DNA from: Thermofilum pendens Hrk 5
GTDB lineage: Archaea; Thermoproteota; Thermoprotei; Thermofilales; Thermofilaceae
NCBI RefSeq assembly: GCF_000015225.1
Contig: NC_008698.1
Coordinates: 630,001-662,000 of the forward strand
Direction of reading: 5' to 3'
Length of the DNA stretch: 32,000 nucleotides
The notes beneath the pieces were generated by a model that was not told the DNA's origin, did no database searches, and saw only the letters and a list, made by a program, of their open reading frames with translations. Shown here piece by piece: positions 13,462 to 31,481 of the stretch (its first letter is position 1; the number at the start of each line of letters is the position of its first letter). Both the position numbers and the translations under genes were made by a program.

Positions 13462-13610
13462 CTGCTTTGCACGCCCGCACGCCTCCTGGAACGCTTGAAG
13501 AAAGCACGAGACAAAGTACTCAAAAAAACTGGAGTCAGAAGGTTAAGGAAATAGGCCAACAGGAAACAGGTGTCCGGCCTCCTTCCCCCCAGCCTCCTTG
13601 TCAAGCACGG
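13462..13610 (+). pseudogene. Start-less relic of the 3' end (31 codons plus 3' flank) of a paralogue of ORF 18295-19722
   Basis: The frame is open only over 13462-13554. It reads ..TPAR-LLERLKKARDKVLKKTGVRRLRK*, against ..HPARPSVERLLERLKKARERALRKLGDQDAKE* at 19627-19722. The downstream CCGGCCTCCTTCCCCCC..CCTCCTTGT block parallels 19741-19760. Confidence 0.6.
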
Positions 13611-13639: not shown

Positions 13640-13666
13640 CGCGAAAAGTGTAATGAGCATACGTCC

Positions 13667-17949: not shown

Positions 17950-18029
17950 GTTTACAAACATGGGAGAAAGCTGAAACCGAGTATCTCCCCAGTTTACAAA
18001 CCAGGAAAAAGGAGAAAAAGGGGTTTTTA
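17950..18029. repeat. GTTTACAAAC/purine-rich motif (copy 2, with internal 42-nt tandem duplication)
   Basis: GTTTACAAAC occurs at 17950 and again at 17992. The segment is related to 11793-11840. On the minus strand it reads UAAAAACCCCUUUUUCUCCUUUUUCC, an oligo-T terminator-like tract directly after the stop of the small (-) ORF. Confidence 0.7.
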
Positions 18030-18233
18030 CGCTAGCCCTAGCCCCCTGAGCTCTTCGACGTCCTTCTCTAGCTCTCTTGCTAGCTCTTCGTCTTCCTCGA
18101 CGCGCGGGGCGCTTTTCACGGAGGCTAGGAACTCCTCTACCGCGTCTAATGCTTCGGCGAGGCGCGCCTCGTAGAGCTCGTCGCGCCTAAGAGTGCTCGC
18201 CAGGATACGCGAGGGAGCGCCGACAGTCCGCAC
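18027..18233 (-). CDS. Hypothetical small acidic coiled protein (~68 aa from GTG 18233)
   Basis: The C-terminal 55 aa (LRRDELYEARLAEALDAVEEFLASVKSAPRVEEDEELARELEKDVEELRGLGLA) look protein-like and a T-rich tract follows. The start is uncertain: the ORF-track ATG at 18374 would overlap the opposite gene. Confidence 0.3.
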   Translation of the reverse strand: MRTVGAPSRILASTLRRDELYEARLAEALDAVEEFLASVKSAPRVEEDEELARELEKDVEELRGLGLA

Positions 18234-18294: not shown

Positions 18295-19722
18295 ATGGGT
18301 AGGGAAATGATGGGGTGTGAGAAAAACGTGGCGGCTGAGGAGGCAGGGTTCGAAGAGTTCGACGAGTGGTTCATTCGCAGGAAGATCGAGGAGCTCCTGA
18401 GGAAGGCGCTGTTTCCGAGCGACGGCTATAGGGGGCTCGAGGCTACTCGCAACGAGGTTGCGCGGGAGCTTGCGGAAATAAGGGGCAACTATGCTCGGTA
18501 CGGCGAGGCCTACGTAGAATACGTTGGCAGGCTCGGGGAAGGCGAGGAGAAGGCGATCAAAGAGGCTGAGAAAGCGATGAGGGAAGCCCTGGAGCACGTA
18601 GACGAGCTCGAAATCAGGAGGACAGGCAGAGCGCACTGGAAGGCTAAGCTTCCAGGCAGGAGTTGGAGGCTATACGTACACTTGAAGCCTAGCGGGTACT
18701 GGGAGGTCGAGATCCGTTTACATCTCAGAGTCGTCAAGCTCAGGCTACCCGATACCCTGAGGCTCCCACCTGAGCTACTTAGAGCCGCCCAAGAGGGCTG
18801 GATCATGGGAGACGCATCGTACCGCGCGGACCGCGAAGAAGTCACGATGACTACAGCGCAGACATGGCAAGTAGCCTCCTTCCCTGGCTTCTGGCCGGGG
18901 AAGGAGGTGGCTGTCTACGTTGATAGAATCGAGATCCACGAGACGAGAGTCAGCGTTAAGTGGTACGTGGTTGTTAAGGGTGTTCGCGACGCGCCTCGCT
19001 GGTGGAGTCTCTCCAAAAAGGAGAAGCAGGGTATTATCTTGGCGGAGATCGAGGCGGCGAACAGAGGAGAAATCGACATTTTCAGGGCGCTAAAGCTCGC
19101 ATTGCTATACGTTACGGATGGAATGTATCCAGGGTCAAGCAACACAGCTAGACATGTGCTGGATTTCGCGGTCGGTCAAAATTCTCGCCGAGTTAGAACC
19201 GAGGGTGCGGTGAAGGTTGCGAGGCTTCTCTACGAGAAAGTACCGCAACTCTTAGCGTACATGGTTGCGTCAGGCTGCCAGAAAGCAGAGTTCTTAGCGA
19301 GCCTGGCATCCGTGAAGCCGCGACACTACGCACCTCGCTACCTAGAGGTTGCGGGTGTCAAAATGACCTTGCTACTCGTAGGCGCTTCACGCGCGCTTGC
19401 GGCAGTGGTGTACGTAACCGAGGATAACGAGGAGACGCTTAGGGGTTTCCCTGAGAGGGCGAGGCGGGAGGGCTTAGAAGTCAGGAAGGTGAAGGTGAGC
19501 AAGGGGCGCTGGGGTTATCGCGCCGGGCAAAAGGAGTTGCTAAGGTATGCCGATAAGCGCCCAATAGTTTACGACACACTCATAGCGTTCGTGGAGGAGA
19601 GACTCGGAGCAATGCCTCTCAATCACCCAGCAAGGCCGAGTGTGGAGCGCCTCCTGGAACGCCTAAAAAAGGCGCGCGAAAGAGCGCTTAGAAAGCTGGG
19701 GGACCAAGACGCTAAAGAGTAA
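18295..19722 (+). CDS. Hypothetical protein of a multi-copy family with two LAGLIDADG-like motifs
   Basis: Long ORF, open from GTG 18193, with ATG codons at 18295, 18307 and 18310. A TTTAAG box at 18275-18284 lies 27 nt from 18307. I recognise no family. The motifs are EGWIMGDAS (18793-18819) and LALLYVTDGMY (19096-19128). Truncated paralogous 3' ends lie at 13462-13610 and 30614-30751. Confidence 0.75.
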   Translation: MGREMMGCEKNVAAEEAGFEEFDEWFIRRKIEELLRKALFPSDGYRGLEATRNEVARELAEIRGNYARYGEAYVEYVGRLGEGEEKAIKEAEKAMREALEHVDELEIRRTGRAHWKAKLPGRSWRLYVHLKPSGYWEVEIRLHLRVVKLRLPDTLRLPPELLRAAQEGWIMGDASYRADREEVTMTTAQTWQVASFPGFWPGKEVAVYVDRIEIHETRVSVKWYVVVKGVRDAPRWWSLSKKEKQGIILAEIEAANRGEIDIFRALKLALLYVTDGMYPGSSNTARHVLDFAVGQNSRRVRTEGAVKVARLLYEKVPQLLAYMVASGCQKAEFLASLASVKPRHYAPRYLEVAGVKMTLLLVGASRALAAVVYVTEDNEETLRGFPERARREGLEVRKVKVSKGRWGYRAGQKELLRYADKRPIVYDTLIAFVEERLGAMPLNHPARPSVERLLERLKKARERALRKLGDQDAKE

Positions 19723-19770
19723 GACCACCATGGAAAGGCGCCCGGCCCCCCTCCTCTTGTGCGAGTTGTA
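19648..19770 (+). repeat. Conserved 3' module of the family (last ~25 codons plus ~48-nt 3' flank), reference copy
   Basis: Compared with the reverse complement of 30614-30712: the 27-nt block at 19724-19750 matches at 26/27, and the first 50 nt from 19651 show about 6 mismatches. The match to 13481-13600 is looser. Confidence 0.75.
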
Positions 19771-19808
19771 GAGGTGAGGTTTTAAGGGGGTTAAACGTTA
19801 TACTAGGC

Positions 19809-20894: not shown

Positions 20895-20969
20895 GAATAC
20901 GCTGGAAAGAGCCGTTGCGCCACCCTTGCTCCGTAATCCTTGAGGCGTTACTTCGTGAAGGGTGGGACC

Positions 20970-22094
20970 ATGTTCTTGGAGAAGTTCAACGTTAGTTATC
21001 CGAACGAACCGCGAGTCTTCGCTGTATATACGACGTGGTGTGTTTCCCGGTGCAATTTTTACGAGACGCTGGAAGCGCTGGAAAGTACCGGAGAAGCTCG
21101 AGTGCTAGGCTCTCTCGGCGACCGCCTCGTGTTTCTAGCCGCGAGAAGCCTCGAGGGCATAGTAGAGAGGCTCTACAGCGTCGCGTGCGTAGAGGAGCTG
21201 TACTTCGTCCTGGGAGAGGCGAGGCTGGGAGAGAGACCCCTCCTAGAGGGAGACATGCTGTCCAGAGTCTCACACCTCCTTCTCCACGCTACGACTTTCA
21301 ACGTGAAAATTCTCGATTGCGAAAAAATGCTGGGTGTAGAGGAAAAGGCGAAGCTTAGAGAAGATTTTTCGAAGATTCTGAAAGAGCTACGCGAAGGGCT
21401 CAGAGCATCCAGAACCGGGCCGGACTTGGAGTTCGTTGTCATAGTGCTTAGCCGTGACAGAGCTCTCCTGTCTTTAACCGTCAAGAGATACAGGAAGGAT
21501 AGGTTCGCTTTTCGAAGTCCTGAGCGAAGGGCTTACTCGCAGCCGAGCGCGCTAACACCTTGGCTTTCCCTCACAATCCTCAACCTGGCCTTGGCAACCC
21601 AGCCAGCGGGCGGAGAAGGGGGTTTTGACGTAGCTTTCCTGGACCCGTTCTGCGGCACGGGAGGAGTTCTGATAGAGGCAGCTCTTCAGGGGATGTACTC
21701 CGTTGGCGTCGATGTAAACTATAGGCAAGTGAGAGGATCGAAAAAGAACCTAAGCGTCTTAGGGCTAAGGGCGGTAGCAGACCTTGTCCTCTGCGACTCT
21801 ACAAAGCTCCCCTTTAGAGCCGAGGCGTTCAATGCCGCAGCCTTCGATCCCCCATACGGGAGGCTCGCACCGACTCATGGGAGAGACCCCGGAGAGATTC
21901 TTCGAGGAGCCTTGAGAAACGTAGTTGAGTCCGTTAAGCCTCGGGGAAGAATAGCTTTCTTCGCCTCCGACATGCTCCTTCAAAACGTAGACGCACCAGC
22001 GCTTTGCGATGTATACGAGCACAGCTCCCTAACGAGACATGTGATCGTAGTTCGCAGAACTAACCACGCGGCTGGCGGGCCCGCCGGGACTTGA
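20970..22094 (+). CDS. Trm11/Trm-G10-like tRNA (guanine-N2) methyltransferase (predicted)
   Basis: The C-terminal class I SAM-dependent methyltransferase carries FLDPFCGTGG and DPPYG motifs, behind an N-terminal THUMP-like region. ATG 20970 is preferred over TTG 20940. The last 22 nt run antisense into tRNA-Arg. Confidence 0.7.
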   Translation: MFLEKFNVSYPNEPRVFAVYTTWCVSRCNFYETLEALESTGEARVLGSLGDRLVFLAARSLEGIVERLYSVACVEELYFVLGEARLGERPLLEGDMLSRVSHLLLHATTFNVKILDCEKMLGVEEKAKLREDFSKILKELREGLRASRTGPDLEFVVIVLSRDRALLSLTVKRYRKDRFAFRSPERRAYSQPSALTPWLSLTILNLALATQPAGGEGGFDVAFLDPFCGTGGVLIEAALQGMYSVGVDVNYRQVRGSKKNLSVLGLRAVADLVLCDSTKLPFRAEAFNAAAFDPPYGRLAPTHGRDPGEILRGALRNVVESVKPRGRIAFFASDMLLQNVDAPALCDVYEHSSLTRHVIVVRRTNHAAGGPAGT

Positions 22095-22168
22095 ACCCGG
22101 GACGTCCGCGCGCACCAGCGCTCAACGGCTCCGCAGGCCGCCACGCTTCCTAGCTACGCCACGGGCCC
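22073..22168 (-). tRNA. tRNA-Arg(GCG) with a 19-nt variable-loop intron (45/46); CCA encoded
   Basis: Reverse complement: GGGCCCG TG GCGT AGCTAGGAA GCGT G GCGGC CTGCGGA GCCGT TG[AGCGCTGGTGCGCGCGGAC]GTC CCGGG TTCAAGT CCCGG CGGGCCC G CCA. The intron at 22104-22122 forms a BHB: central helix CCGU/GCGG, bulges UGA and ACG, inner hairpin GCGC-UGGU-GCGC. Confidence 0.85.
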
Positions 22169-22254
22169 TTTACCCAGCAGATGTTAAAGTTTCCACGATA
22201 TAGACTTTTCGCACACGACCCCTGCGCGCGACGCCACGTGCGGTAGATCTAAGG

Positions 22255-22824
22255 CTATCCGAATATCTTCTCGAGCTCTCTTAAGGGTATAGCTGGTAGC
22301 GAGAGTGAAAGCACATCCATTATCTCGTATATTCTCCTTTCCTCTTCCTTATTTAGCGTAACTTCCCCGCTCTGCACCATGTGGTTCAGAGCGTCTAAGA
22401 GTGTGGAGGCCTCCATGCGCAGGTGTACTTTCTTCCTCTCTATCCTACTCCTCGCAACATTGTACTCCTCGCGGGGGATCTCGCCGCTTATCAGTTTTTC
22501 ATCGAGAACGAGAAGCTCGTCGCGTAGCTTCCTCAGCTCTTCCGCGATGTCGGAGAGCCTCCCGATTATCGAGAGAATAGCCTCCTGGGAGTGGTCCAGG
22601 AGAATAATCCTGTTGTTCTCTACCCTGATCCTTTCCGGTGGAACAACGATCTTCCCGTTGGAGTCTGTCTTTAGTACAACCTTTATCGGCTGTTTCTCGC
22701 GCTTAGACACGTAAATCTTCCATATCTTGCCTACTTTCTCCCCGCTCCTTCTGTAAACGACCTTACCGACTATCTTTTCAAGTAGCTTTCTATCCGTTAT
22801 CTCGCTTAGAACTATGCCCCTCAT
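22255..22824 (-). CDS. PRC-barrel plus coiled-coil protein, CdvA-like
   Basis: A PRC-barrel-like segment (IVGKVVYRRSGEKVGKIWKIYV...VVPPERIRVENNRIILLD) is followed by a long coiled coil and a hydrophobic/proline C-terminal tail (LSLPAIPLRELEKIFG). The ORF is open to 22920, but the CTTTAAAG box (22846-22855) is centred 26 nt upstream of ATG 22824. Confidence 0.5.
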   Translation of the reverse strand: MRGIVLSEITDRKLLEKIVGKVVYRRSGEKVGKIWKIYVSKREKQPIKVVLKTDSNGKIVVPPERIRVENNRIILLDHSQEAILSIIGRLSDIAEELRKLRDELLVLDEKLISGEIPREEYNVARSRIERKKVHLRMEASTLLDALNHMVQSGEVTLNKEEERRIYEIMDVLSLSLPAIPLRELEKIFG

Positions 22825-23015
22825 AACCTCCTCAAACGTCATGTGCTTTAAAGGGCTTTTCAAGACGTACTCTCGCGGGAGATTATTCGCAAAGGGGAAA
22901 GACGTACATATTACGTTCATTATCCGCGCACTTTGCTAAACGGACTTTTCGCGCATACGAAGCTTTAAAAGCAGGAAGTTCGGCTCATTGCAGTGTAAGG
23001 CTGGGTGTCGGTGTC

Positions 23016-24107
23016 ATGGATGGAGACACTCTGAGCTTTATAATGTGGCTCGTAGCACTCGCGATTTTCTCGTACATAACGCAGGAGATGCAGATTCTAA
23101 AGGCTATAAGCGAGGTTGAAGGCTACGTCGCTCTCTTCAGGGGTATACGGGACAAGGCTGTGAAAGTGCTTGTAGACCAGTTTTCAAAGTACACGGCCAG
23201 CTCTGAGGGGGCTTCTAGGGACGTGTTGGAGCAGAGGATTCTCTCGCTCATCGAGACACGCATCATACTCCCAGTAGACCTGGATCCCTACGGCATAGTG
23301 AGGAAGATAAAGCACGTGCTTAGAACTAGCGAAGTAGAACTCGAGAAGGAGGTTTCCCGCATCGCGAAAGGCGCCTCGAGGACGGAGGTGCAGAGGCTGT
23401 CAAGCCTGGTGGAGGTTGCGCGTGAGCTAAACCTTGTGTACAAGCTTGTTAACCACTACTACCTTATCGCGCGGAAATTTAAGAGCCTCTGGCTCGTGCT
23501 ACAGCTGAACGCGCAGATGCCCTTCGTACTCGAAGAGGTGAAGGCGATAGAGGGGGCCCTGGAGTCGTTCTCGAAGGGTATTCCTGTAGGCGACTCCGCC
23601 GGGCCACTGGTTGCTGCTTTGCTGGCTAGGAAGTATAAGGGTAGCTTTGTTGAACCCGTGAAGGACACTGAAATCTCGCAGGTAACGGTCGACGGAAAGA
23701 AGGTATTCATAGTGAAGGCAAAGGGCCCTGGGAGCACGACGGGACACCTTGAGGAAGCTCTATCCTGGATATTCTCGAGGGAGAAAGTCTCGCTCATAGT
23801 ATCCGTGGATGCTGCGTTGAAGCTAGAAGGGGAAGAGTCGGGGTCCGTAGCGAGCGGGTACGGTGTCGCGATGGGTGGCATAGGCGTTGAGAGATTCGAG
23901 ATAGAGGAGCTCTCGACGAAGCATGGAGTGCCGCTGTTCGCAGTACTCATAAAGATGTCGGAGGCAGAGGCTCTCTCGGTTATGACGGAGAAGGTTTACC
24001 AAGGGGTTCAGCAAGCGGTGAGGATAGTAGAGGATATCATCTCAAGGGCACCGGAGGGTTCGTCCATTGTAGTTCTAGGAGTTGGAAACAGCCTAGGAGT
24101 ACCGTGA
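23016..24107 (+). CDS. Membrane-anchored conserved archaeal protein (DUF1512-like)
   Basis: 363 aa. It has an N-terminal TM helix, a helical middle region and a C-terminal alpha/beta domain (GDSAGPLVAA..KGPGSTTGH..GYGVAMGGIG). The family assignment is from memory only. Confidence 0.45.
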   Translation: MDGDTLSFIMWLVALAIFSYITQEMQILKAISEVEGYVALFRGIRDKAVKVLVDQFSKYTASSEGASRDVLEQRILSLIETRIILPVDLDPYGIVRKIKHVLRTSEVELEKEVSRIAKGASRTEVQRLSSLVEVARELNLVYKLVNHYYLIARKFKSLWLVLQLNAQMPFVLEEVKAIEGALESFSKGIPVGDSAGPLVAALLARKYKGSFVEPVKDTEISQVTVDGKKVFIVKAKGPGSTTGHLEEALSWIFSREKVSLIVSVDAALKLEGEESGSVASGYGVAMGGIGVERFEIEELSTKHGVPLFAVLIKMSEAEALSVMTEKVYQGVQQAVRIVEDIISRAPEGSSIVVLGVGNSLGVP

Positions 24108-24233
24108 CGCTCCTAGAACCTCCTTAGATGGAACCGGGGAACGTTTCTACGCTATGTCTGTGTCATACCAGTAAGAAATATAAGCCTTTTGTTTCCAGAA
24201 TAATCGCAATTTGGTGTATCGGAGGGTGAGTGT

Positions 24234-26063
24234 ATGACGCGCCAGGAGGCTTTACGCGCGGAGGAGTTTCGCTTGGATTATTCTCAGCTTGCTGGTCTCT
24301 CTTACGAGGATATAGCTAAGGTTGCAGCGTCTGTACGCGAAAAGCTGATGCCGAGGTTGGGGGTAGACTACAAGCTTTACCTGTCGAAGAGGCCTCCCAT
24401 CAAGGAAGGCGAGGAGCTGATCGCGTATACCCAGTCGGCGTGCCCGGAGTGCAACTCGTTGCTGACGGCGGTTATATTTAAGCGCGAGGGGAAGGTGTTC
24501 ATACGCAAGGTTTGCCCAGAACACGGAGAATTCGAAGAGCTTTACTTCGGCGACGCTGAGATGTACGAGCGTTTCCGGAGGTACCAGAGGGATGGGAAGG
24601 GGAACGTAATCTCGCACCTACCGGTGACAGCCCCGTGTCCCTATAATTGCGGCGTATGCACTAGGCATAGATCCCACGCGGCTTTGATAAACATCGTGTT
24701 GACAAACCGGTGTGATCTTAGCTGCTTCTACTGCTTCTTCTTCGCCTCCAAGTCCGGCTACATATACGAGCCTTCTCTCGAGCACATAAGGTACATGCTG
24801 AGGCAGGCTAGGCTCACAGAGCCTGTGAAGCCCCCGGCTATACAGCTTACGGGCGGCGAGCCCACGCTTAGGGACGACCTCTTAGAGATTATAAAGATGG
24901 CGCGTGAAGAGGGCTTCACGCATATTCAGCTAAACACGAACGGTATCAGGCTGGCGTTCGACCCGGAGCTTGCAGTCAAGGTGAGGCAGGCCGGTGTTAA
25001 CACGGTCTATATGAGCTTCGATGGGGTGTCGCCGTTCTCCAACCCGAAGAACCACTGGGAGGTTCCATACGCCTTGGACAACTTGAGGAAAGCGGGTCTA
25101 GGAGTGGTTCTCGTTCCGACCGTTATAAAGCACTACAACCTCTCGGAGGTAGGCAAGATAATCCAGTTCGGGCTCCAGAACAACGACATAGTAAGGGGGG
25201 TGAACTTCCAGCCCGTATCTATCGTCGGCAGGATGCCGAGAAAGGAGAGGGACAAGGAGAGGGTTACGATACCCGATGTTATAAAGGCTATAGAGGAGCA
25301 GACGGGAGGGCAAATAAAAGCTGAGGACTGGTACCCCGTACCGAGCGTGGTCCCGATATCGAGGTTCGTCGAGGCATTGACGGGTAAGCCCCAGCTAGCC
25401 TTCACGACGCACTTTGCATGCGGAGCCGCTACCTACGTTTGGCAGGAGGACGGAGAAATAATACCCATAACCCGCTTCGTCCACGTAGACGAGTTCTTCC
25501 GGTTCCTGGACGCGAAGGCAGATGAGCTCGAGAAAGGGAAGAACAAGTACCTAGTCATGCTGGAGCTTATGTGGAACCTCAGGAAGTTCGTCGATGCGTC
25601 TAAGGCTCCCCGCAGGCTCCGGGAAGGCAACCGCCTGCTCAAGATACTCTACAGGGTTTTCGTAAAACACGACTACGAGAGCCTAGGAGAATTCCACTAC
25701 AACACACTGTTCCTCGGAATGATGCACTTCCAGGATCTGTACAACCACGACGTCGCGAGGGTTATGAGGTGCGATATACACTACGTAATGCCTGACGGCA
25801 GACAGGTCCCCTTCTGCTCTTTCAACGTCCTCCCAGACCTCTACAGGGATCGTGCTCAGAGAGTGTTCTCGTACTCGATAAAGGACTGGGAGAAACTAAC
25901 AGGGAAGAGGTTGGTAGAGGACCACTACAAGAGAAACATCAAGAAGCTGATCTCCGGGGAGCCCTACAGAAGGCACTACTCGAAGATAATAGACATAGAC
26001 TCTATACCCTACGAGCAACACGTACTAGCCTCGAAGAGATTCGGCATCCCTGTCATCGAATAA
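24234..26063 (+). CDS. tes: Radical SAM enzyme, tetraether lipid synthase (Tes/GDGT-MAS)-like
   Basis: 609 aa. SD GGAGGGTGAG lies 5 nt upstream. There is an N-terminal Cys knuckle pair (CPEC...CPEH), a CPYNCGVC motif, the radical SAM motif CDLSCFYC, and a large C-terminal domain. This architecture fits the Tes family as I recall it. Confidence 0.55.
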   Translation: MTRQEALRAEEFRLDYSQLAGLSYEDIAKVAASVREKLMPRLGVDYKLYLSKRPPIKEGEELIAYTQSACPECNSLLTAVIFKREGKVFIRKVCPEHGEFEELYFGDAEMYERFRRYQRDGKGNVISHLPVTAPCPYNCGVCTRHRSHAALINIVLTNRCDLSCFYCFFFASKSGYIYEPSLEHIRYMLRQARLTEPVKPPAIQLTGGEPTLRDDLLEIIKMAREEGFTHIQLNTNGIRLAFDPELAVKVRQAGVNTVYMSFDGVSPFSNPKNHWEVPYALDNLRKAGLGVVLVPTVIKHYNLSEVGKIIQFGLQNNDIVRGVNFQPVSIVGRMPRKERDKERVTIPDVIKAIEEQTGGQIKAEDWYPVPSVVPISRFVEALTGKPQLAFTTHFACGAATYVWQEDGEIIPITRFVHVDEFFRFLDAKADELEKGKNKYLVMLELMWNLRKFVDASKAPRRLREGNRLLKILYRVFVKHDYESLGEFHYNTLFLGMMHFQDLYNHDVARVMRCDIHYVMPDGRQVPFCSFNVLPDLYRDRAQRVFSYSIKDWEKLTGKRLVEDHYKRNIKKLISGEPYRRHYSKIIDIDSIPYEQHVLASKRFGIPVIE

Positions 26064-26082
26064 CGCGCAGAGGCGCTTGCAG

Positions 26083-26559
26083 ATGAAGGCATTCGCGTTT
26101 GAGCTAAAGGCGGTAGACCCTAAACCCTTAGACCTAGCGGTAAAGCCGTACCTACTCACTGTTTGCTCGGGCAAGGCTACGGTTCTTTCACCGGTCAGGA
26201 GGAGGCAGTTTTTAGAGGAGGACCTGGTGGGCTTTGACGAAGAGATAGGTTTCCTAATCGGTATTGTTTACAACGATTTCTTTCACGGGGAGGGTAACGT
26301 AGAGGTCTTCGAGTATGATGTCTCCTCTAGTTGCGAGATGGTAGCGAAAATATACGAAGTGAGGGACTCAGGTTTCCTTTACTACAGGGCACGCGTCTAT
26401 AAGCGCTCAGAGGGCGTTGAGGGCTGGACGGTAATTTTCAGCGATCACTTTTCGAAGCCGGGGAGGCCGAAGCACAAGCTCGAAGAGCTTTCGGCGATAA
26501 TCGGGGTACGCTTAGAGGAACTCGCGGAAGCTTTAAAGGAGGAGCACGCGGCGAAGTAA
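26083..26559 (+). CDS. Hypothetical protein (no family recognised)
   Basis: 158 aa from ATG 26083 (TTG 26077 in the ORF track). It starts 20 nt after the tes-like stop on the same strand, and its composition is typical of genuine coding sequence. Confidence 0.55.
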   Translation: MKAFAFELKAVDPKPLDLAVKPYLLTVCSGKATVLSPVRRRQFLEEDLVGFDEEIGFLIGIVYNDFFHGEGNVEVFEYDVSSSCEMVAKIYEVRDSGFLYYRARVYKRSEGVEGWTVIFSDHFSKPGRPKHKLEELSAIIGVRLEELAEALKEEHAAK

Positions 26560-26707
26560 GTTTGCACGTTTTCGTAAAAGTTCATTGTAAGCTGGGAAGA
26601 GTCTGCGACAGTAGGATACTGGCGTATCGTCGTTTGTCGATAAAAAATTGTTTATCAGCGAAAGACATAAAAACCTTTCCACGTTATATGGTTAAGCATA
26701 TAAACCA

Positions 26708-27061
26708 ATGGTGGACATTGCTATGCAGTCTTCCCGTACGATCGAGGAGAAACAAAAACTTCTCGAACACCTTGCGTCGGTAGTCGAAGAACTCTTGAGA
26801 AACACGAAGTCTTCCCAGATATCCATAAAGCTTAGAACCCTTTTAAGGTACGCGTACGTGTCCTACGTAAAGAAAACATCCGATATAAACGTTATACGGG
26901 GGCTTGTCCCCCGTGTTAGGCCTCCCGCGTGGCTTACCAACCAGTACTACTACAGAGAGATAGAATTGATGCTTAAAACGCGCTTTAACGCCAGGATTGA
27001 GAATAGGAGGCAGTTTAGGTACGTCGTCCTGTACAAGAATCCATCGAACTTCAGGCGCTAG
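26708..27061 (+). CDS. Hypothetical basic protein in an AT-richer islet
   Basis: 117 aa, K/R/Y-rich. An ATATAAA box at 26694-26700 lies 26 nt upstream of the internal ATG 26723, so a leaderless start at MQSSRT is possible. A T-rich tract follows the stop. Confidence 0.5.
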   Translation: MVDIAMQSSRTIEEKQKLLEHLASVVEELLRNTKSSQISIKLRTLLRYAYVSYVKKTSDINVIRGLVPRVRPPAWLTNQYYYREIELMLKTRFNARIENRRQFRYVVLYKNPSNFRR

Positions 27062-27080
27062 CCGCTTACCCTTTAAACTA

Positions 27081-27096
27081 TCTTTCTTTCTTTTTT
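27081..27096 (+). terminator. Oligo-T tract in a convergent gap
   Basis: TCTTTCTTTCTTTTTT lies 20 nt after the 27061 stop and abuts the stop of the minus-strand PUA gene. Confidence 0.45.
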
Positions 27097-27580
27097 ACTC
27101 AGATTCTCCTGCACCCGTACGTGTCTTGATAGCTTTCCCTCTACGTATAACCCCCATAGAGTCTCCAGGCAACATGGCTTTGCCCGAGCCACTTACGCGA
27201 GCCTCTTCTCCAGAAATCACGGCCACCTCGTCTCCGGGGAGAATCTCTCGATCGGCTTCAATCACGTGTTTAGAGAAGACCGTCCTTCCCTGAGAAACGT
27301 ACCGAGCGACGTCTTCGGGGACCTCTACGAAGTAACAGCGCCTAACAGAGAGCAGTAGCCTCCACCCCTCCGGCGTGGGTACGATGAAGCCGTCCGACAG
27401 CCTTACGGACGCGAAAAGAGTGTCCCCTACGAAGATTTTCCTTATACGTCCCGTCCTACGCGACCTCTCAACGGATAGCTTGTCCCCGAGTCTCTCCAAG
27501 TCGAAGTCCACTCCAAACTGGTAAAGTAGTAGCCTTTGAAGCGCCTTGCGCTCCCAGGGTGAAGGCTTCTCTCTCTCCAT
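27095..27580 (-). CDS. Stand-alone PUA-domain RNA-binding protein (pre-PUA plus PUA, ArcTGT C-terminal-like)
   Basis: 161 aa. The C-terminal PUA pattern is VFSKHVIEADREILPGDEVAVISGEEARVSGSGKAMLPGDSM. Confidence 0.65.
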   Translation of the reverse strand: MEREKPSPWERKALQRLLLYQFGVDFDLERLGDKLSVERSRRTGRIRKIFVGDTLFASVRLSDGFIVPTPEGWRLLLSVRRCYFVEVPEDVARYVSQGRTVFSKHVIEADREILPGDEVAVISGEEARVSGSGKAMLPGDSMGVIRRGKAIKTRTGAGESE

Positions 27581-27668
27581 AAAGCCTCAAACGGGGAACT
27601 TGCACAACATTGATAAATATTCACTGCAGGGGGCTTGACACCCGCTCTTCTACATGTTTGGGAGCATG

Positions 27669-27750
27669 GGCTAGGCACATTCCCAGAGGCTACGCGACGC
27701 GCTCGTCGCACGCGAGCCGCGAAAGATACATAAGACTCGTGTGCCTAGTC
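27669..27750. promoter_or_regulatory. Inverted repeat bracketing the mbf1 TATA box
   Basis: GGCTAGGCACA (27669-27679) and TGTGCCTAGTC (27740-27750) are complementary at 10/11. They enclose a GCGACG-CGCT-CGTCGC hairpin (27694-27709) and the ATACATAAGA box (27726-27735). Confidence 0.4.
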
Positions 27751-27760
27751 TTACCCTTAG

Positions 27761-28243
27761 ATGGTGCGCTGCGAGATCTGCGGAAGAGAGATACGGGGAC
27801 CGGCTTACAGGGTACGAGTCGAGGGGGCTGAACTCATAGTGTGTTCGCAGTGTGCAAAAGGTAAGACTGTAATAGGTGTGTTAACCTTCTCCCAGGGAGC
27901 ACCTTCTAAGCCGAGAACCGCGGTAACGAGGCGGAGGCGCGGTGGAGAAGTGGAGGAGATAATAGTCGAGAACTACGGGGAGATCATAAGGAGTGCTCGT
28001 GAGCGCATGGGATGGACTAGGGATGTCTTAGCGGCCATGGTGGGAGAGAAGGAGTCGACCATTAGGAGGATAGAGGCTGGGCAACTGGAGCCAACGATAG
28101 ACCTGGCGAGAAAGCTTGAAAAGGTGTTAAAGGTGAAGTTGATAGAAGAGCTCACGGACTACGGTGACTACTCGGAGGACTACGGCTACGAGGGCGTTAC
28201 ATTAGGGGACATAGCCGAGTTTAGGGATAGAGGGGATATATGA
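27761..28243 (+). CDS. mbf1: Archaeal multiprotein bridging factor 1 (zinc ribbon plus XRE-type HTH)
   Basis: The pattern CEICGREI...CSQCAK is followed by an HTH (IRSARERMGWTRDVLAAMVGEKESTIRRIEAG). Confidence 0.92.
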   Translation: MVRCEICGREIRGPAYRVRVEGAELIVCSQCAKGKTVIGVLTFSQGAPSKPRTAVTRRRRGGEVEEIIVENYGEIIRSARERMGWTRDVLAAMVGEKESTIRRIEAGQLEPTIDLARKLEKVLKVKLIEELTDYGDYSEDYGYEGVTLGDIAEFRDRGDI

Positions 28244-29514
28244 GCGTCGACGGGAGACAAGCAGTAATAGTAGTTGCTAGGCTCTCCGGGAAGGGAGATC
28301 TGGCGCTACTCGACGAGCTCCGAAAGTTGGTGGAAGCCGCCGGCTACGCTGTTGCCGGTGAACTTCTCCAGAAGTCCAGGTACGAGGACCCGAAGTACAA
28401 CATAGGTAGGGGGAAGGTTCTAGAGCTGAAGAGGCTCGTAGAGGAGAAGAAGCCCCTCAAGGTAGTCTTTTTGAACGATCTTAAGCCGAACCAGGCGTAC
28501 AACTTGTCGAAGGAGACAGGCGTGGAGGTGATTGATAGGTACGAGCTGATCCTGGAGATATTCGCGAAGCGAGCCGGAAGCCGTGAATCAAAGCTTCAAA
28601 TCGAGCTTGCGAAGCTAAAGAGGGAGCTGAGCTTCGCCAAGGAGTACATTAACCTGGCGAAGAGAGGCGAGCTTCACGGCTTTCTCGGTGGAGGAAAGTA
28701 CGCCGTAGACGCCTACTACGCATACGTCTCTATGCGCATATCGAAGATAGAGGAAGAATTGAGGAAGATTAGAAAAATGAAGGAGGAAAGGATAGCCAGG
28801 AGGGTGGAGGCGGGTCTCTATACGGTGGCCCTGACCGGGTATACGGGCGCTGGGAAAACGACTCTTTTCAACGTTCTGACGGGCGAGAACGGCTATATTG
28901 ATGGTAAACCCTTCGCCACTCTTTCCACGCTTTCTCGTAGAACGTACTTCCACGGCTTCCCAGTACTTGTGACCGACACTATAGGCTTTATTGACGATCT
29001 ACCGGATGCCCTGGTCGACGCCTTCTATACCACCCTGAGAGAAACTCTCGCAGCCGATGTTATCCTGCTAGTACTGGACGTGTCCGATACTCCAGCAGAG
29101 ATCAGGCGGAAATTAACGGCTAGCATGGAAGTCCTCTTGAACCTCGGCGTTCCCCCGACGCGCATACTTCTCGTTGGGAACAAGATCGACAAAGTCTCCT
29201 CCGCCGAGCTTGAAGAAAGGGAGCGGCTCCTCGAGGATAGCGGGCTACGCTACACGCTAATATCTGCTGCGAGGCGTATAGGCATACATGAATTGACGCA
29301 AGCCGTTGTAGAGATGCTTCCCGAAAAGGTCTCTGCAACCCTAGCGCTAACGCGGGAGGCCCTAGCCGAGGATCTGAGGGAGCTTCTCGACAGGTGCAGG
29401 GTGAGGGAGGTCGTTCAGGGTTCCGATGGAAAGTTGCTCGTAGTCGTCGAGGGTAGAAGAGACATTGTAGCCAGACTTCAGGCACGCGCGGGGATGGGGC
29501 TTGTCGACGGGTAG
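28240..29514 (+). CDS. hflX: GTPase HflX
   Basis: An HflX N-terminal domain is followed by G motifs GYTGAGKTTL, DTIGF and NKID. The start overlaps the mbf1 stop (ATGA). Confidence 0.94.
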   Translation: MSVDGRQAVIVVARLSGKGDLALLDELRKLVEAAGYAVAGELLQKSRYEDPKYNIGRGKVLELKRLVEEKKPLKVVFLNDLKPNQAYNLSKETGVEVIDRYELILEIFAKRAGSRESKLQIELAKLKRELSFAKEYINLAKRGELHGFLGGGKYAVDAYYAYVSMRISKIEEELRKIRKMKEERIARRVEAGLYTVALTGYTGAGKTTLFNVLTGENGYIDGKPFATLSTLSRRTYFHGFPVLVTDTIGFIDDLPDALVDAFYTTLRETLAADVILLVLDVSDTPAEIRRKLTASMEVLLNLGVPPTRILLVGNKIDKVSSAELEERERLLEDSGLRYTLISAARRIGIHELTQAVVEMLPEKVSATLALTREALAEDLRELLDRCRVREVVQGSDGKLLVVVEGRRDIVARLQARAGMGLVDG

Positions 29515-30046
29515 ACGAGTATTCGTTCTAAGAATAGGGCACAGGCCCGTCAGAGATCACCGTGTAACCACGCACGTAGGGCTCGTGGCGCGAGCTTTCG
29601 GTGCCGACGGGATATTTCTCGAGGAGAGCGTCGAGGAAAGCGTGATAAGGACGCTGAGGAACGTTGTGGAGAATTGGGGTGGCGACTTCAAAGTGCTGAC
29701 AACGAGGGATCCACGGGAAACCGTGGCTAACTGGAAGAAGAACGGCGGGATAGTCGTACACCTGACCATGTACGGAGAGAATATCTCCGAGGAATTAATA
29801 AATCTTATATCCGGGCAGGGCAAAGATATACTGGTAGTCGTGGGCGGTGAAAAAGTTCCTCGATGGCTCTTTGAAGAAGCCGACTTTAATGTGGCTATAG
29901 GCAACCAACCGCACAGCGAAGTCGCCGCACTAGCGGTATTTCTCGACAGGCTCTTCAAAGGAGAGGAGCTCCGCAGAGAGTTTCCCGGGGCTAAATTATC
30001 CATTATCCCGTCTAAGAGAGGGAAGATCGTGGTGAGAAGGGAATGA
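29501..30046 (+). CDS. trm56: tRNA (cytidine56-2'-O)-methyltransferase aTrm56 (SPOUT)
   Basis: The motifs VLRIGHRPVRDHRVTTHVGLVARAFGADG and GGEKVP are present. The TTG start overlaps hflX by 14 nt. Confidence 0.88.
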   Translation: MSTGRRVFVLRIGHRPVRDHRVTTHVGLVARAFGADGIFLEESVEESVIRTLRNVVENWGGDFKVLTTRDPRETVANWKKNGGIVVHLTMYGENISEELINLISGQGKDILVVVGGEKVPRWLFEEADFNVAIGNQPHSEVAALAVFLDRLFKGEELRREFPGAKLSIIPSKRGKIVVRRE

Positions 30047-30579
30047 ATGCACACGAAGCCTTGGCAGAGATTGCCGGAAAGATGTTCGGGGATAATGCCA
30101 AGAAGGTGATGATGGTTCTCGCCAGTAACGTTGAGGTCTCCGACGAAGACCTGGCGAAGGACCTGAAAATGGATCCGCCCGAGCTTAGGAAGTTGCTCAA
30201 TGATCTCTTCGAAGCGAGGCTCGTTAAGTACCGGAGAGCGCGCGACGAGAACATAGGTTGGTACAAGTACTACTGGCGTATAACCGATGAGCCGATCCAG
30301 CAAATACTCAGTGATAGGAAGAGGCTTACGCTAAGTATTCTAGAAAAAGTGCTTTCGCTGGAGGAGAACTCCGAGACATACGTATGCCCTAAGTGCGGCA
30401 CACGGTACACTGTGGATGAGGCGGAGAACAACAACTACACGTGCGAGGTATGCGGCGAGGTCCTCGAACCTTTCGACAACACGCACCGAGTCGAGAAACT
30501 TAAGAGGGCGATCGAACTACTAGGAAACTGGGACCCCTCTCCAAAACAACAAGCATCGCGCGCCATCCCTCATGCATGA
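30043..30579 (+). CDS. tfe: Transcription factor E (TFE alpha)
   Basis: A winged helix (SDEDLAKDLKMDPPELRKLLNDLFEARLVKY..GWYKYYW) is followed by a zinc ribbon (CPKCGTRY...CEVCGEVL). The start overlaps the trm56 stop (ATGA). Confidence 0.92.
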   Translation: MNAHEALAEIAGKMFGDNAKKVMMVLASNVEVSDEDLAKDLKMDPPELRKLLNDLFEARLVKYRRARDENIGWYKYYWRITDEPIQQILSDRKRLTLSILEKVLSLEENSETYVCPKCGTRYTVDEAENNNYTCEVCGEVLEPFDNTHRVEKLKRAIELLGNWDPSPKQQASRAIPHA

Positions 30580-30613
30580 ATGCGTCCGCGCGCGTCGATG
30601 CCGTGTATAAAAT

Positions 30614-30751
30614 GGGGGCCGGGCGCCTTTCCCTGGTGGTTTACCCTTATTCCTGCCCTGTCCTCAGCTTTCTAAACGCTCTTTCTCGCGCCTTCCTTAG
30701 GCGTTCCAAGAGACGTTCTACATTTCGGCGGGCGCGCGCGAGTAAAGTTAT
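30614..30751 (-). pseudogene. Start-less relic of the 3' end of a paralogue of ORF 18295-19722 (inverted orientation)
   Basis: The minus strand reads ..RRAARNVERLLERLRKARERAFRKLRTGQE*, with the stop at 30649-30647. It is followed by ACCACCAGGGAAAGGCGCCCGGCCCCC, which matches 19724-19750 at 26/27. An in-frame stop at 30754-30752 closes the frame upstream. Confidence 0.65.
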
Positions 30752-30839
30752 CTAGCCTTGGAAAAGTTATCCTAGTGCGCTTTTACTTTCGCCGAACATG
30801 AAAGGTAATTTAACCCGGGTAATACGAAGGTAGTACGCT

Positions 30840-31481
30840 ATGTCTGATGAGCTGAGGAACGTACTGTCGAACCTTACGGATACCGAAAGAAGGATAGTAG
30901 AGGTATACATGCAGAGGGGAGGCTCCGCGAAGGAAATTGCTAGTCTTCTGAATGTCTCCGAGAGAACAGTCTACAAGGCTCTCTACAAGTACAGGAAACT
31001 GGCGCTCGAGCAGGGAATAGACCCCTCCAACTTTTACCTCAGGAAGACAATTGCCGGCACGGCTGCTAAACCTGTACAGCAAGGCGTGCCCAGCGAACTC
31101 TTAGAGAGCATCAAGCAAGAGCTTGTCAGCGAGTTGGCAAAGATAGTCGAAGAAAGTGTACAGAGAGCTTTGAAGAGCATGCTCGAAGACCTAGTTGTTC
31201 CAAGGCAGGATCAACGGGCACCGGTGGAACCTGTTAAACCCGCCGTGCTGGAACCCCACTACGATCAAGTGCTGTACAGGCTGTCTGATGTGCTCGAAAA
31301 GCTCAACTACAACATTGAGAGGCTGGCGGAGAAAATAGACAGGCTGGACAGTTCGGGCACCGCTAAGGCGATAGCCCACGAACCCTACTCGTGGCAGGCT
31401 AAGCCTATAACCACCGAGGTCAGCATGCCCAGTTACGTGCAAGGAAACCCGTGGCTAGAAATACTGTCGAGGAGACAATGA
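30840..31481 (+). CDS. HTH (sigma-70 region 4/LuxR-like) domain protein with coiled-coil C-terminal half
   Basis: 213 aa. The N-terminus LTDTERRIVEVYMQRGGSAKEIASLLNVSERTVYKALYKYRK is a clear HTH. A TAATTTAAC box lies about 30 nt upstream. The C-terminus ends ..SYVQGNPWLEILSRRQ. Confidence 0.65.
   Translation: MSDELRNVLSNLTDTERRIVEVYMQRGGSAKEIASLLNVSERTVYKALYKYRKLALEQGIDPSNFYLRKTIAGTAAKPVQQGVPSELLESIKQELVSELAKIVEESVQRALKSMLEDLVVPRQDQRAPVEPVKPAVLEPHYDQVLYRLSDVLEKLNYNIERLAEKIDRLDSSGTAKAIAHEPYSWQAKPITTEVSMPSYVQGNPWLEILSRRQ

What the first reader, a model, noticed from the sequence alone, without database searches (positions are those of the whole stretch)
30614..30751. Inverted, near-identical copy of the family 3' module directly after tfe
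The reverse complement of 30614-30640 is ACCACCAGGGAAAGGCGCCCGGCCCCC, against ACCACCATGGAAAGGCGCCCGGCCCCC at 19724-19750 (26/27). The homology continues into the coding relic (..VERLLERLRKARERAFRKLRTGQE*), with about 6 mismatches in the first 50 nt from 19651. It decays with a 1-nt indel near 30722 and ends at an in-frame stop.

The copy is truncated on its upstream side, where the promoter of the HTH gene at 30840 begins. On the other side it stops about 35 nt after the tfe stop.

The 27-nt post-stop block is conserved better than the coding part. That suggests a functional site such as a recombination or cleavage target, a transcript 3' end, or a protein-binding site.
Basis: seen in the sequence. 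Interest (0 to 1): 0.65.

Follow-up and report, generated by a model that had tools for sequence, protein, structure and literature searches.

The report
Leftover tail of a repeated gene
Behind the tfe gene of the archaeon Thermofilum pendens lies an upside-down, roughly 120-140-base leftover of the tail of a multi-copy gene; it is most likely dead debris, but it shows that this uncharacterised gene family, whose predicted fold resembles homing endonucleases, ends in a well-kept 27-base non-coding block.

Summary
Window 30614-30729 (minus strand) aligns with 19635-19750 at 81.5% over 119 nt (E 9e-22), and the post-stop 27-mer matches 26/27. It is a 5'-truncated pseudogene fragment: the last ~30 codons, the stop and 27 nt. 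The parent is a family found so far almost only in Thermofilum pendens (8 close paralogs of ~470 aa, no Pfam or NCBIfam hit). The intact copy in this window is 18295-19722. A second, older relic lies at 13467-13588. All three copies lose homology at or within a few bases after CCGGCC(C/T)CC, and both relics start within about 20 nt of each other.

The family's central domain models confidently (pLDDT 93.6). Its best structural matches are LAGLIDADG proteins: WhiA, I-Tsp061I, bI3 maturase and viral homing endonucleases. Distant paralogs and N- and C-terminal fragments also exist, so this looks like a decaying, selfish-type repeat family.

The 27-mer is better conserved between copies A and B than synonymous sites are (P about 1e-3). 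The older relic does not show this. I could not show that the 27-mer is a cleavage, binding or RNA 3'-end site, because the DNA of the other paralogs was unreachable. Verdict: an ordinary gene relic of modest interest. The LAGLIDADG-like nature of the family is the more useful by-product.

The parts
30614..30640 (-). Copy B of the 27-nt post-stop block (ACCACCAGGGAAAGGCGCCCGGCCCCC on the minus strand). It is the 3' terminus of the repeated unit.
   Evidence: 26/27 to 19724-19750. Homology to copy A ends exactly here.
30641..30757 (-). Copy B, coding relic: the last ~30 codons of a type-A family gene (..VERLLERLRKARERAFRKLRTGQE*), with an extra premature TAA. It has no start codon. An in-frame TAG lies upstream. 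DNA homology fades at about 30729-30735; weak protein-level similarity runs to 30757.
   Evidence: Translation; tblastn 30757-30665, 68% over 31 aa; blastn; nhmmer 30734-30612, E 2e-32.
18295..19722 (+). Intact family gene (P0001, 475 aa from ATG 18295; the ORF is open from 18193). It has an N-terminal helical/beta region, a central double LAGLIDADG-like domain and a C-terminal domain ending in a long helix.
   Evidence: ORF list; 8 paralogs, all T. pendens; gene call in the source assembly; structure models.
18742..19329 (+). Region encoding the LAGLIDADG-like double domain (aa 150-345). The two motif helices end in GWIMGD(173)ASY and LLYVTD(275)G.
   Evidence: AlphaFold model pLDDT 93.6, pTM 0.88. 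Foldseek top hits are WhiA, I-Tsp061I and bI3 maturase, and viral LAGLIDADG or intein endonucleases. D173, D275 and G276 are invariant in the 8 paralogs; D173 and G276 are nearly invariant in the 19-sequence alignment.
19628..19723 (+). Copy A, coding part of the 3' module (..ARPSVERLLERLKKARERALRKLGDQDAKE*). It is the most conserved stretch among the type-A paralogs.
   Evidence: Sliding-window identity is 0.86 here against 0.675 overall; alignment with B and C.
19724..19750 (+). Copy A of the 27-nt post-stop block, about 30 nt upstream of the TATA-like box of the next gene (DUF373, 19809).
13467..13588 (+). Copy C, an older relic of the same module (..ARLLERLKKARDKVLKKTGVRRLRK* then GGCCAACAGGAAACAGGTGTCCGGCCTCC). 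It lies between a P-loop gene and an intron-bearing tRNA gene.
   Evidence: the repeat finder D6; tblastn 13480-13533; nhmmer 13467-13584, E 4e-28; segment identities to A: core 40/58, 27-mer 20/27.

Best explanation
30614-30757 is a dead, 5'-truncated remnant of a former copy of a multi-copy gene family that is strongly expanded in Thermofilum pendens. The family proteins (~470 aa) carry a divergent double LAGLIDADG (homing-endonuclease-type) domain.

The family behaves like a selfish or repeat element. The genome holds many paralogs, plus distant paralogs and fragments of both ends. The family is otherwise patchily distributed in Thermoproteales.

The repeated DNA unit ends, on its 3' side, with the 27-nt block right after the stop codon. 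When a copy decays by deletion, the last ~120 nt (about 30 codons plus the 27-mer) can be left behind in an intergenic spacer. Relic B (after tfe) and relic C (before a tRNA gene) are two such leftovers, derived from two different parent paralogs.

Shown:
- the homology and the truncation
- the common 3' boundary
- the nearly common 5' boundary
- substitutions in the coding part that are mostly synonymous, so the copies diverged while still coding
- the LAGLIDADG-like predicted fold

Inferred:
- The copies spread as cassettes by a recombination or repair-type (homing-like) process.
- The 27-mer is kept in live copies because it belongs to the functional end of the cassette or its mRNA.
- The relics themselves no longer do anything.
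For: - A/B homology has E 9e-22. Only three module copies are found in the window by a profile search.
- The relic has no start codon, an upstream in-frame stop and a premature TAA.
- 6 of 9 core mismatches between A and B are at third codon positions. The B tail (..LRTGQE*) resembles P0002/P0004 (..LGARQE*) rather than A. So B descends from another functional paralog. The same holds for C.
- All 8 close homologs among 5.8 billion proteins are from T. pendens. A profile search of 1.84 billion representatives finds only 13 hits. These include three more distant T. pendens paralogs and a 60-aa N-terminal fragment; P0008 lacks its N-terminus.
- The central domain model has pLDDT 93.6. The top PDB and BFVD matches are all LAGLIDADG proteins, with probabilities 0.9-1.0. 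Asp173 and Asp275-Gly276 are invariant in the 8 paralogs.
- The 3' module is the best-conserved part of type-A paralogs.
- In relic C the 27-mer (20/27) is no better kept than the coding part (40/58).
- A Logan contig of an independent run starts inside relic B (30686). This is expected if a stretch of it recurs exactly elsewhere in the genome.
- A remote homolog in a Vulcanisaeta MAG sits at a contig end.
Against: - Two independent random deletions would rarely leave fragments that start within about 20 nt of each other (roughly 3% by chance). This hints at a defined breakpoint or at selection for the module.
- The 27-mer is more conserved in A/B than neutral expectation (P about 1e-3). So 'pure debris' does not explain everything.
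- LAGLIDADG membership rests on predicted structure and motifs only. TM-scores are modest (0.38-0.50), the second half-domain has only one beta-hairpin, and no sequence profile (Pfam, PHROGs, PDB hmmsearch) detects it.
- No mobility, target site, terminal repeat or empty site was demonstrated.
- The DNA of the other paralogs was not seen.
Confidence: 0.6

Rival explanations
1. The 27-mer, or the whole ~120-nt module, is the recognition, cleavage or binding site of the family's own LAGLIDADG-like protein. Module-only copies in intergenic spacers would then be homing footprints or landing pads, into which full genes are copied by double-strand-break repair.
For: - The family protein has a LAGLIDADG-type predicted fold with both motif aspartates kept.
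- The 27-mer is an island of conservation (26/27) between a variable tail (58%) and unrelated flank.
- It marks the common 3' boundary of three copies.
- Both relics begin at nearly the same position.
- 27 nt is in the size range of homing-endonuclease sites (my own background knowledge; not checked in the papers read here).
Against: - No cleavage or binding data.
- Flanks beyond the 27-mer differ at all three loci, so there is no conserved split target.
- No matching block at the 5' side of the full gene: no other match to the 27-mer with <=7 errors in the window.
- Relic C has lost 7 of 27 positions plus an indel.
- Homing needs homology on both sides, and only one side is present.
Confidence: 0.15
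2. The 27-mer is an RNA-level element of the family mRNAs, such as a 3'-end formation or stability signal, or the seed of an antisense RNA. It survives in relic B only because the relic is young.
For: - It sits directly after the stop codon in a non-conserved reading frame, so it is non-coding.
- The antisense strand of copy A folds better than shuffles (z = -2.2, 4/200).
- The consensus fold pairs the 27-mer with the ERLLE-coding stretch.
Against: - It has no T-rich tract of the kind usually linked to archaeal transcription termination (my own background knowledge, not checked here).
- Sense folds are no better than shuffles (z +0.4 to +1.2), and the antisense folds of B and C are not significant.
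- With three sequences the covariation term is tiny (-1 to -2.3 kcal/mol).
- No Rfam family matches.
- I saw no C/D-box motifs when reading the sequence by eye.
Confidence: 0.1
3. Nothing about the 27-mer is functional. Its 26/27 identity reflects chance, a local mutational cold spot or a short recent gene-conversion patch, and the similar 5' ends of the two relics are coincidence.
For: - There is only one informative pair (A/B).
- The excess conservation is not replicated in A/C (20/27 versus 40/58).
- The P value of about 1e-3 was computed after the block had been noticed.
- The G+C-rich block includes a GGGCGCCC palindrome, which could favour short conversion tracts.
Against: - A 27-nt conversion tract separated from the conserved core by a 58%-identical tail would be unusually short.
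- The block coincides exactly with the end of homology in three loci.
Confidence: 0.2
4. The inverted module copies A and B are the ends of an invertible 10.9-kb segment (19751-30613). Recombination between them would flip the segment and swap the 3' end of the family gene, as seen for repeat-bounded inversions in Pyrobaculum.
For: - The copies are inverted and 10.9 kb apart.
- Gene order next to tfe differs between T. pendens and Infirmifilum, so relic B lies at a synteny breakpoint.
- paREP-bounded inversions are reported in P. oguniense (PMC3558965).
Against: - The repeat is short and only 81% identical, with a longest exact run of 19 nt.
- The segment holds core genes.
- Synteny between these genera is broken in many places, so a breakpoint here is weak evidence.
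- No read-level evidence is available.
Confidence: 0.05

Closest known systems
LAGLIDADG homing endonucleases and their domesticated relatives (archaeal intron-encoded I-Tsp061I, PDB 2dch; fungal bI3 maturase, 2ab5; bacterial WhiA, 3hyi)
   Same: - The predicted central domain has two LAGLIDADG-type helices, each ending in a conserved Asp (GD173AS, TD275G).
- The first half has alpha-beta-beta-alpha-beta-beta-alpha topology.
- Top Foldseek hits in PDB and BFVD are all of this fold.
- The family also shows the selfish-gene hallmarks of many paralogs, fragments and patchy phylogenetic spread.
   Different: - It lies in neither an intron nor an intein.
- It is about 470 aa, with extra N- and C-terminal domains.
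- The second half-domain is reduced to one beta-hairpin in T. pendens.
- No Pfam LAGLIDADG model hits it.
- TM-scores are only 0.38-0.50.
- No target site or nuclease activity is known.
PaREP2b repeat genes of Pyrobaculum (called 'putative transposons' in PMC3558965)
   Same: Both are lineage-specific, multi-copy genes of unknown function in Thermoproteales, associated with variable regions. UniRef labels one paralog (P0002) 'PaREP2b'.
   Different: No Pfam family of any kind, and so no PaRep2b model, matches any of the 8 paralogs or the distant homologs even at E<=10 or E<=1. No homology to Pyrobaculum proteins was recovered.
Degenerate remnants in the homing-endonuclease-gene life cycle (invasion, fixation, decay, loss), and pseudogene fragments of IS or repeat genes generally
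   Same: The fragment is truncated, has no start codon and is interrupted by stops. It lies in an intergenic spacer, alongside intact and partly truncated paralogs.
   Different: The two relics keep the same ~120-nt 3' piece with nearly the same 5' limit. The non-coding terminal 27-mer is unusually well kept in one of them.
Partitioned SSV-type integrase genes and att-site remnants of crenarchaeal integrated elements
   Same: Both involve a 5'-truncated gene end left in the chromosome. One relic (C) lies next to a tRNA gene.
   Different: - The protein is not an integrase.
- No tRNA overlap: C lies about 75 nt upstream of the tRNA, not in its 3' half.
- There is no matching N-terminal gene part or element between repeats.
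- The DNA between the copies holds core genes such as the thermosome, Trm56 and TFE.
MITE-like non-autonomous derivatives of transposons
   Same: Both are short (~120-140 nt) intergenic copies that share an end with a longer, protein-coding repeat.
   Different: - No terminal inverted repeats and no target-site duplication.
- The sequences upstream of relics B and C are unrelated to each other and to the 5' flank of the full gene. Local alignment scores are at or below shuffles.

Membership tests
Pseudogene fragment (relic) of the T. pendens 470-aa family | Significant nucleotide and protein homology to part of an intact family gene | tested here: met
   blastn E 9e-22, 81.5% over 119 nt; tblastn 68% over 31 aa; nhmmer E 2e-32.
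Pseudogene fragment (relic) of the T. pendens 470-aa family | Not a complete gene: truncated, no start codon, disabling mutations | tested here: met
   Only the last ~30 of 475 codons are present. There is an in-frame TAG upstream and a premature TAA, and no ATG or GTG in frame. No gene is called there in an independent assembly.
LAGLIDADG homing endonuclease superfamily (for the parent family) | Two LAGLIDADG helices packed at a pseudo-two-fold interface, with the alpha-beta-beta-alpha-beta-beta-alpha core fold | tested here: met
   The model (pLDDT 93.6) has H10-22 and H113-126 as motif helices. The first half has the full topology; the second half has one hairpin only. Foldseek top hits are all LAGLIDADG proteins, prob 0.93-1.00 in PDB and 0.97-1.00 for named LAGLIDADG or intein proteins in BFVD. 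TM-scores are only 0.38-0.50.
LAGLIDADG homing endonuclease superfamily (for the parent family) | Conserved acidic residue at the C-terminal end of each LAGLIDADG helix (metal-binding catalytic residues) | tested here: met
   D173 and D275(-G276) are invariant in the 8 paralogs. D173 and G276 are >=90% conserved in the 19-sequence alignment. Whether they are catalytic was not testable.
LAGLIDADG homing endonuclease superfamily (for the parent family) | Detectable by curated sequence profiles (Pfam LAGLIDADG_1/2/3, Hom_end) | tested here: not met
   No Pfam hit at E<=10 for the 8 paralogs or at E<=1 for 10 remote homologs. No LAGLIDADG chain appears in PDB hmmsearch. PHROGs gives nothing.
LAGLIDADG homing endonuclease superfamily (for the parent family) | Site-specific DNA cleavage and homing into a cognate empty site; location in an intron or intein, or free-standing next to its target | not testable with these tools
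   Needs biochemistry or comparison of filled and empty alleles. The nearest genomes available (Infirmifilum, about 60% aa identity) are too rearranged for this.
PaREP2b (Pfam PaRep2b) | Match to the Pfam PaRep2b model, or homology to Pyrobaculum PaREP2b proteins | tested here: not met
   No Pfam family matches. No Pyrobaculum protein is among the hits. The label comes from one UniRef name only.
IS element or MITE | Terminal inverted repeats, target-site duplication and a transposase | tested here: not met
   No second copy of the 27-mer, in either orientation, lies near the gene's 5' end: <=7 errors finds only the two known copies. The relic upstream flanks are unrelated. No transposase family hits.
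Integrated-element att remnant (SSV-type partitioned integrase) | Integrase homology, att overlapping a tRNA gene, and direct repeats flanking foreign DNA | tested here: not met
   No integrase domain. The relics do not overlap tRNA genes. The DNA between copies encodes core genes.
Known structured RNA (Rfam) | Covariance-model match, or a fold better than shuffles with covariation | tested here: not met
   No Rfam match on any of the three copies at E<=1. z-scores are +0.4 to +1.2 (sense) and -0.6 to -2.2 (antisense). Covariation is negligible with three sequences.

The most novel reading that the evidence does not exclude
The family is a previously unrecognised class of free-standing, multi-copy LAGLIDADG-type mobile genes in Thermoproteales. 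Its cassette ends in a 27-nt site that the encoded protein recognises. The ~120-nt module-only copies scattered in intergenic spacers would be homing footprints or landing pads, and occasional substrates for rearrangement, rather than random debris.
Probability: 0.15. Interest if true: 0.65.

Novelty: new member of a known kind. Interest (0 to 1): 0.3.

Why it matters
By itself the feature is a gene relic and changes little. Its value is indirect, in three ways.

- It defines the 3' end of a repeated DNA unit in a genome otherwise described as poor in mobile elements.
- It led to a structural assignment for an unannotated family. These 'hypothetical' or 'PaREP2b' proteins have a LAGLIDADG-like double domain and are nearly confined to one species, with thin scatter in Vulcanisaeta, Infirmifilum and Thermoproteaceae.
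- Free-standing, multi-copy LAGLIDADG genes with extra domains are, to my knowledge, not a described feature of archaeal chromosomes (two literature searches here found none).

If the 27-mer turned out to be the protein's site, the family would offer thermostable, long-site DNA-binding or DNA-cutting proteins. It would also give an example of how such genes spread without introns or inteins. For annotation, such relics explain assembly breaks and should not be called as genes.

Tried and rejected
**Paralog DNA.**
- The look-up of encoding contigs found no record for P0002-P0008.
- The search for related loci on genome contigs found no relative. The T. pendens genome is evidently not in that collection.
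- Viral contigs hold no relative and no 27-mer.
- Plasmid and phage collections gave no protein or DNA match.
- As a result, the key test, the 27-mer after every paralog, could not be done.

**27-mer scans.** Scans of genome contigs and metagenome contigs returned 3 and 6 loci. All are 21-23-nt chance matches that do not extend; most of the loci are G+C-rich (56-72% G+C) and the three named genome hits are bacterial.

**MITE idea.** I asked whether the relics consist of a 5' end plus a 3' end of the unit. The sequences upstream of B and C are not similar to each other or to the 5' flank of the full gene, beyond shuffles. Rejected.

**Integrase or att idea.** No integrase, no tRNA overlap, and core genes lie between the copies. 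Rejected.

**RNA gene idea.** No Rfam match, folds are not significant, and I saw no C/D-box motifs when reading the sequence by eye. Not supported.

**Structure of the full-length protein.** The model with 8 sequences was poor in the central part (pLDDT 69). Its Foldseek search was uninformative, with I-OnuI and WhiA only at rank 8-48. It was replaced by the domain model.

**Empty-site comparison.** I tried this through DUF1512 orthologs. The nearest genomes with long contigs are Infirmifilum (about 60% aa identity), which are too rearranged.

**Extending the window.** Going about 9.5 kb to the right found no further module copy.

**Literature.** The T. pendens genome paper (PMC2293246) is not held.

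Full report
**Source.** The proteins of the window identify the organism as Thermofilum pendens. The window lies at about 1.649-1.681 Mb of assembly GCA_054696865.1, contig CM138769.1. G+C content is 53%.

**1. The observation**

The two 27-mers are as quoted and differ at one position ([I4], 5). Computed properly, the similarity extends well beyond them. blastn of 30501-30900 against the whole window gives a single non-self hit, 30614-30729 (minus) against 19635-19750 (plus), at 81.5% over 119 columns and E 9e-22.

The minus-strand reading frame gives ..RRNVERLLERLRKARERAFRKLRTGQE*. The intact gene ends ..PSVERLLERLKKARERALRKLGDQDAKE*.

A third, weaker copy lies on the plus strand at 13467-13588. 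It reads ..ARLLERLKKARDKVLKKTGVRRLRK* and is followed by a diverged 27-mer counterpart ([D6], 12). A profile built from the three copies finds no others in the window. It also finds none in about 9.5 kb to the right of the window, and none in loci from Infirmifilum or Vulcanisaeta.

**2. Anatomy**

A and B compare as follows:
- The core coding stretch (VERLL..RKL) is 85% identical, and 6 of its 9 mismatches fall at third codon positions.
- The last codons plus the stop are 58% identical.
- The 27-mer is 26/27.
- The sequence after the 27-mer is unrelated: A has CTCCTCTTG, B has ATTTTATAC.

Copy C stops matching at the same place, give or take a few pyrimidine-rich bases. So the 27-mer is the 3' terminus of the repeated unit.

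On the 5' side, B stops matching at about A position 19628-19635. C stops at about 19640-19648, or near 19628 if a 7-nt gap is allowed. Both relics are therefore the same ~120-nt 3' module.

The 27-mer is read in different frames in A and B relative to the stop, so it is non-coding. Relic B has no start codon, an in-frame TAG about 10 codons upstream of VERLL, and a premature TAA (AAA to TAA relative to A). It lies 34 nt after the tfe stop. About 50-70 nt separate it from the TATA-like box of the sigma-70-region-4-type HTH gene at 30840.

**3. The parent family**

The intact gene is 18295-19722 (475 aa, P0001). It has no Pfam or NCBIfam match.

A search of 5.8 billion proteins found eight relatives, all from T. 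pendens, at 50-100% identity. Five have the C-terminus seen in the relics (type A). Three have a different C-terminal third (type B). Among type-A paralogs the last ~25 residues are the best conserved stretch, at 0.86 mean pairwise identity against 0.675 overall.

An exhaustive profile search of 1.84 billion representatives found only 13 hits. Among them:
- three more distant T. pendens paralogs (P0009, P0010, P0012)
- a 60-aa N-terminal fragment (P0011)
- members from Vulcanisaeta, Infirmifilum and Thermoproteaceae MAGs and from hot-spring metagenomes

P0008 lacks about 95 N-terminal residues. One Vulcanisaeta homolog sits at a contig end.

I noticed two LAGLIDADG-like motifs about 100 residues apart: GWIMGD173ASY and LLYVTD275G. 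A full-length model from 8 sequences was poor in this region. A model of residues 150-345 using a 19-sequence alignment reached pLDDT 93.6 and pTM 0.88.

Foldseek results for that domain model:
- Against the PDB, the top five are WhiA (E 5.6e-4, prob 1.00), the archaeal intron-encoded homing endonuclease I-Tsp061I (prob 0.97), the WhiA LAGLIDADG domain and two chains of the bI3 LAGLIDADG maturase.
- Against BFVD, the top matches are dominated by I-SceI-like and 'LAGLIDADG DNA endonuclease' proteins, Hint/intein-annotated proteins and large enzymes of the kind that often host inteins, most with prob >=0.9.

TM-scores are modest (0.38-0.50). The second half-domain of the T. pendens proteins has only one beta-hairpin. 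Sequence profiles do not see the relationship.

I therefore call the family LAGLIDADG-like with fair confidence. Whether it cuts DNA is open. One paralog carries the UniRef label 'PaREP2b'. No Pfam family of any kind, and so no PaRep2b model, matches it. PaREP2b genes of Pyrobaculum have been called putative transposons (PMC3558965).

**4. What the relic is**

The mostly synonymous or conservative differences in the coding core show that A and the parents of B and C diverged while all were still coding. B's tail (..LRTGQE*) resembles P0002/P0004 (..LGARQE*) more than it resembles A. So B is the remnant of a different paralog that once lay between tfe and the HTH gene, or a fragment brought there by recombination. 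C is the remnant of a more distant paralog.

A contig from an independent sequencing run (SRR9438660) is identical to the window but begins at 30686, inside relic B. An assembly graph would break there if an exact stretch of the relic recurs elsewhere in the genome.

Together with the N-terminal fragment and the truncated paralog, this describes a repeat family in decay, as is typical of selfish genes.

**5. Is the 27-mer functional?**

For:
- It is an island of near-identity between a variable tail and unrelated flank.
- P(>=26/27) is about 1.6e-3 given the 72% identity of the rest of the block. It is about 8e-4 (my hand calculation) against the 70% identity of third codon positions.
- It is the unit's terminus.

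Against:
- There is only one informative pair.
- In A versus C the block (20/27) is no better kept than the core (40/58).
- There is no significant RNA structure. Sense z-scores are +0.4 to +1.2. The antisense fold of A has z = -2.2, but those of B and C do not. Covariation with three sequences is negligible.
- There is no Rfam match. It has no T-tract, which would be expected at an archaeal terminator (my own background knowledge).
- No second copy lies near the gene's 5' end.

It is not a widespread motif. Viral contigs hold none. Genome and metagenome collections hold only 21-23-nt chance hits in G+C-rich bacterial DNA, and these do not extend.

**6. Mechanism, with the steps marked**

Shown:
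- a repeated unit that ends at the 27-mer
- two 5'-truncated leftovers of the same module from different parents
- a LAGLIDADG-like fold for the encoded protein
- multi-copy, patchy, decaying family behaviour

Inferred:
- The genes multiply as cassettes by a break-repair or recombination route, as free-standing homing-endonuclease genes do.
- Copies are lost by deletion that tends to spare the last ~120 nt.
- The 27-mer is kept in live copies as part of the cassette end or its mRNA.

The near-coincident 5' ends of the relics (about 3% by chance) and the well-kept 27-mer leave room for a more active role. They could be the protein's binding or cleavage site, with the relics as footprints or landing pads. 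I give this about 15%.

Relic B also lies at a point where gene order differs from Infirmifilum: there TFE is followed by a PUA gene, and the HTH gene is elsewhere. It is inverted relative to A, 10.9 kb away. However, the two genera differ by many rearrangements, and the repeat is short, with a longest exact run of 19 nt. An inversion role is therefore only a remote possibility.

**7. Comparison and novelty**

The feature at 30614-30757 is a gene relic, which is a known kind of thing. The parent family is a divergent, unannotated branch of the LAGLIDADG fold with extra domains. It is free-standing and multi-copy. This differs from the intron- and intein-borne archaeal enzymes and from single-copy WhiA.

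It fails the tests for IS/MITE, for integrase/att remnants, for Pfam PaRep2b and for known RNA families (see the membership table).

Interest is modest (0.3). The finding is real and tidy, but mostly ordinary. The LAGLIDADG assignment and the defined unit terminus are the parts worth following up with the whole genome in hand.

Noticed in passing
window 13664-13802 (+): A 139-nt tRNA-like gene with tRNA-type ends (GGGGCCG...CGGCCCCACCA) and a ~60-nt insertion after the anticodon arm, probably a non-canonical intron. ARAGORN misses it. Rfam gives only a sub-threshold tmRNA hit. Its 3' end is 90% complementary to that of tRNA-Arg at 22073-22168, which itself is 96 nt ([I3], 6, 10, 79).
   Followed up: partly
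window 11793-11840, 17950-17975, 17992-18030 (+): Three copies of a motif, GTTTACAAAC-NN-GG(G)A(G)AAAG. Two of them are followed by GGTTTTTA(A/C)G, which looks like a TATA box. With <=1 mismatch there are 5 hits in the window against 1.3 expected; 0 of 100 shuffles reach this. The copies lie 200-350 nt upstream of the P-loop gene (12045) and of the family gene (18295). They could be an operator/promoter pair or a small repeat ([D4], 53-55, 87).
   Followed up: partly
window 18295-19722 (+), and proteins P0001-P0020: The ~470-aa family has no Pfam or NCBIfam annotation. Its centre is predicted to be a double LAGLIDADG-like domain. T. pendens holds 8 close paralogs, at least 3 distant ones and fragments. 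Two C-terminal types (A and B) replace each other from about residue 345.
   Followed up: yes
window 30586-30595 and 30729-30741: Relic B is bracketed by (CG)n tracts: CGCGCGCG on the tfe side and GGGCGCGCGCGAG at its 5' junction. GCGCGCG occurs 23 times in the window against 7.7 expected and clusters here. This may be microhomology used in the deletion or insertion that made the relic.
   Followed up: no
L014 1-154 = window 30686-30839: A contig assembled from run SRR9438660 is 100% identical to the window over the 1,315 nt they share, but it starts at 30686, inside relic B. This suggests that an exact stretch of the relic recurs elsewhere in that genome and breaks the assembly graph.
   Followed up: partly
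window 27095-30579 versus L012 (Infirmifilum uzonense) and L011: The block HTH_3 - HflX-type GTPase - Trm56 - TFE is conserved in I. uzonense (L012), but its neighbours are not. In I. uzonense TFE is followed by the PUA gene, and the radical-SAM block is inverted relative to T. pendens. L011 (Infirmifilum sp.) is rearranged as well. Several rearrangements therefore separate the genera around the relic.
   Followed up: partly
window 18027-18233 (-): A 68-aa acidic, helical ORF is called as a gene in the source assembly. It lies between the GTTTACAAAC motifs and the family gene, on the opposite strand, and has no family match. It is unclear whether it is real or belongs to the repeat unit.
   Followed up: no
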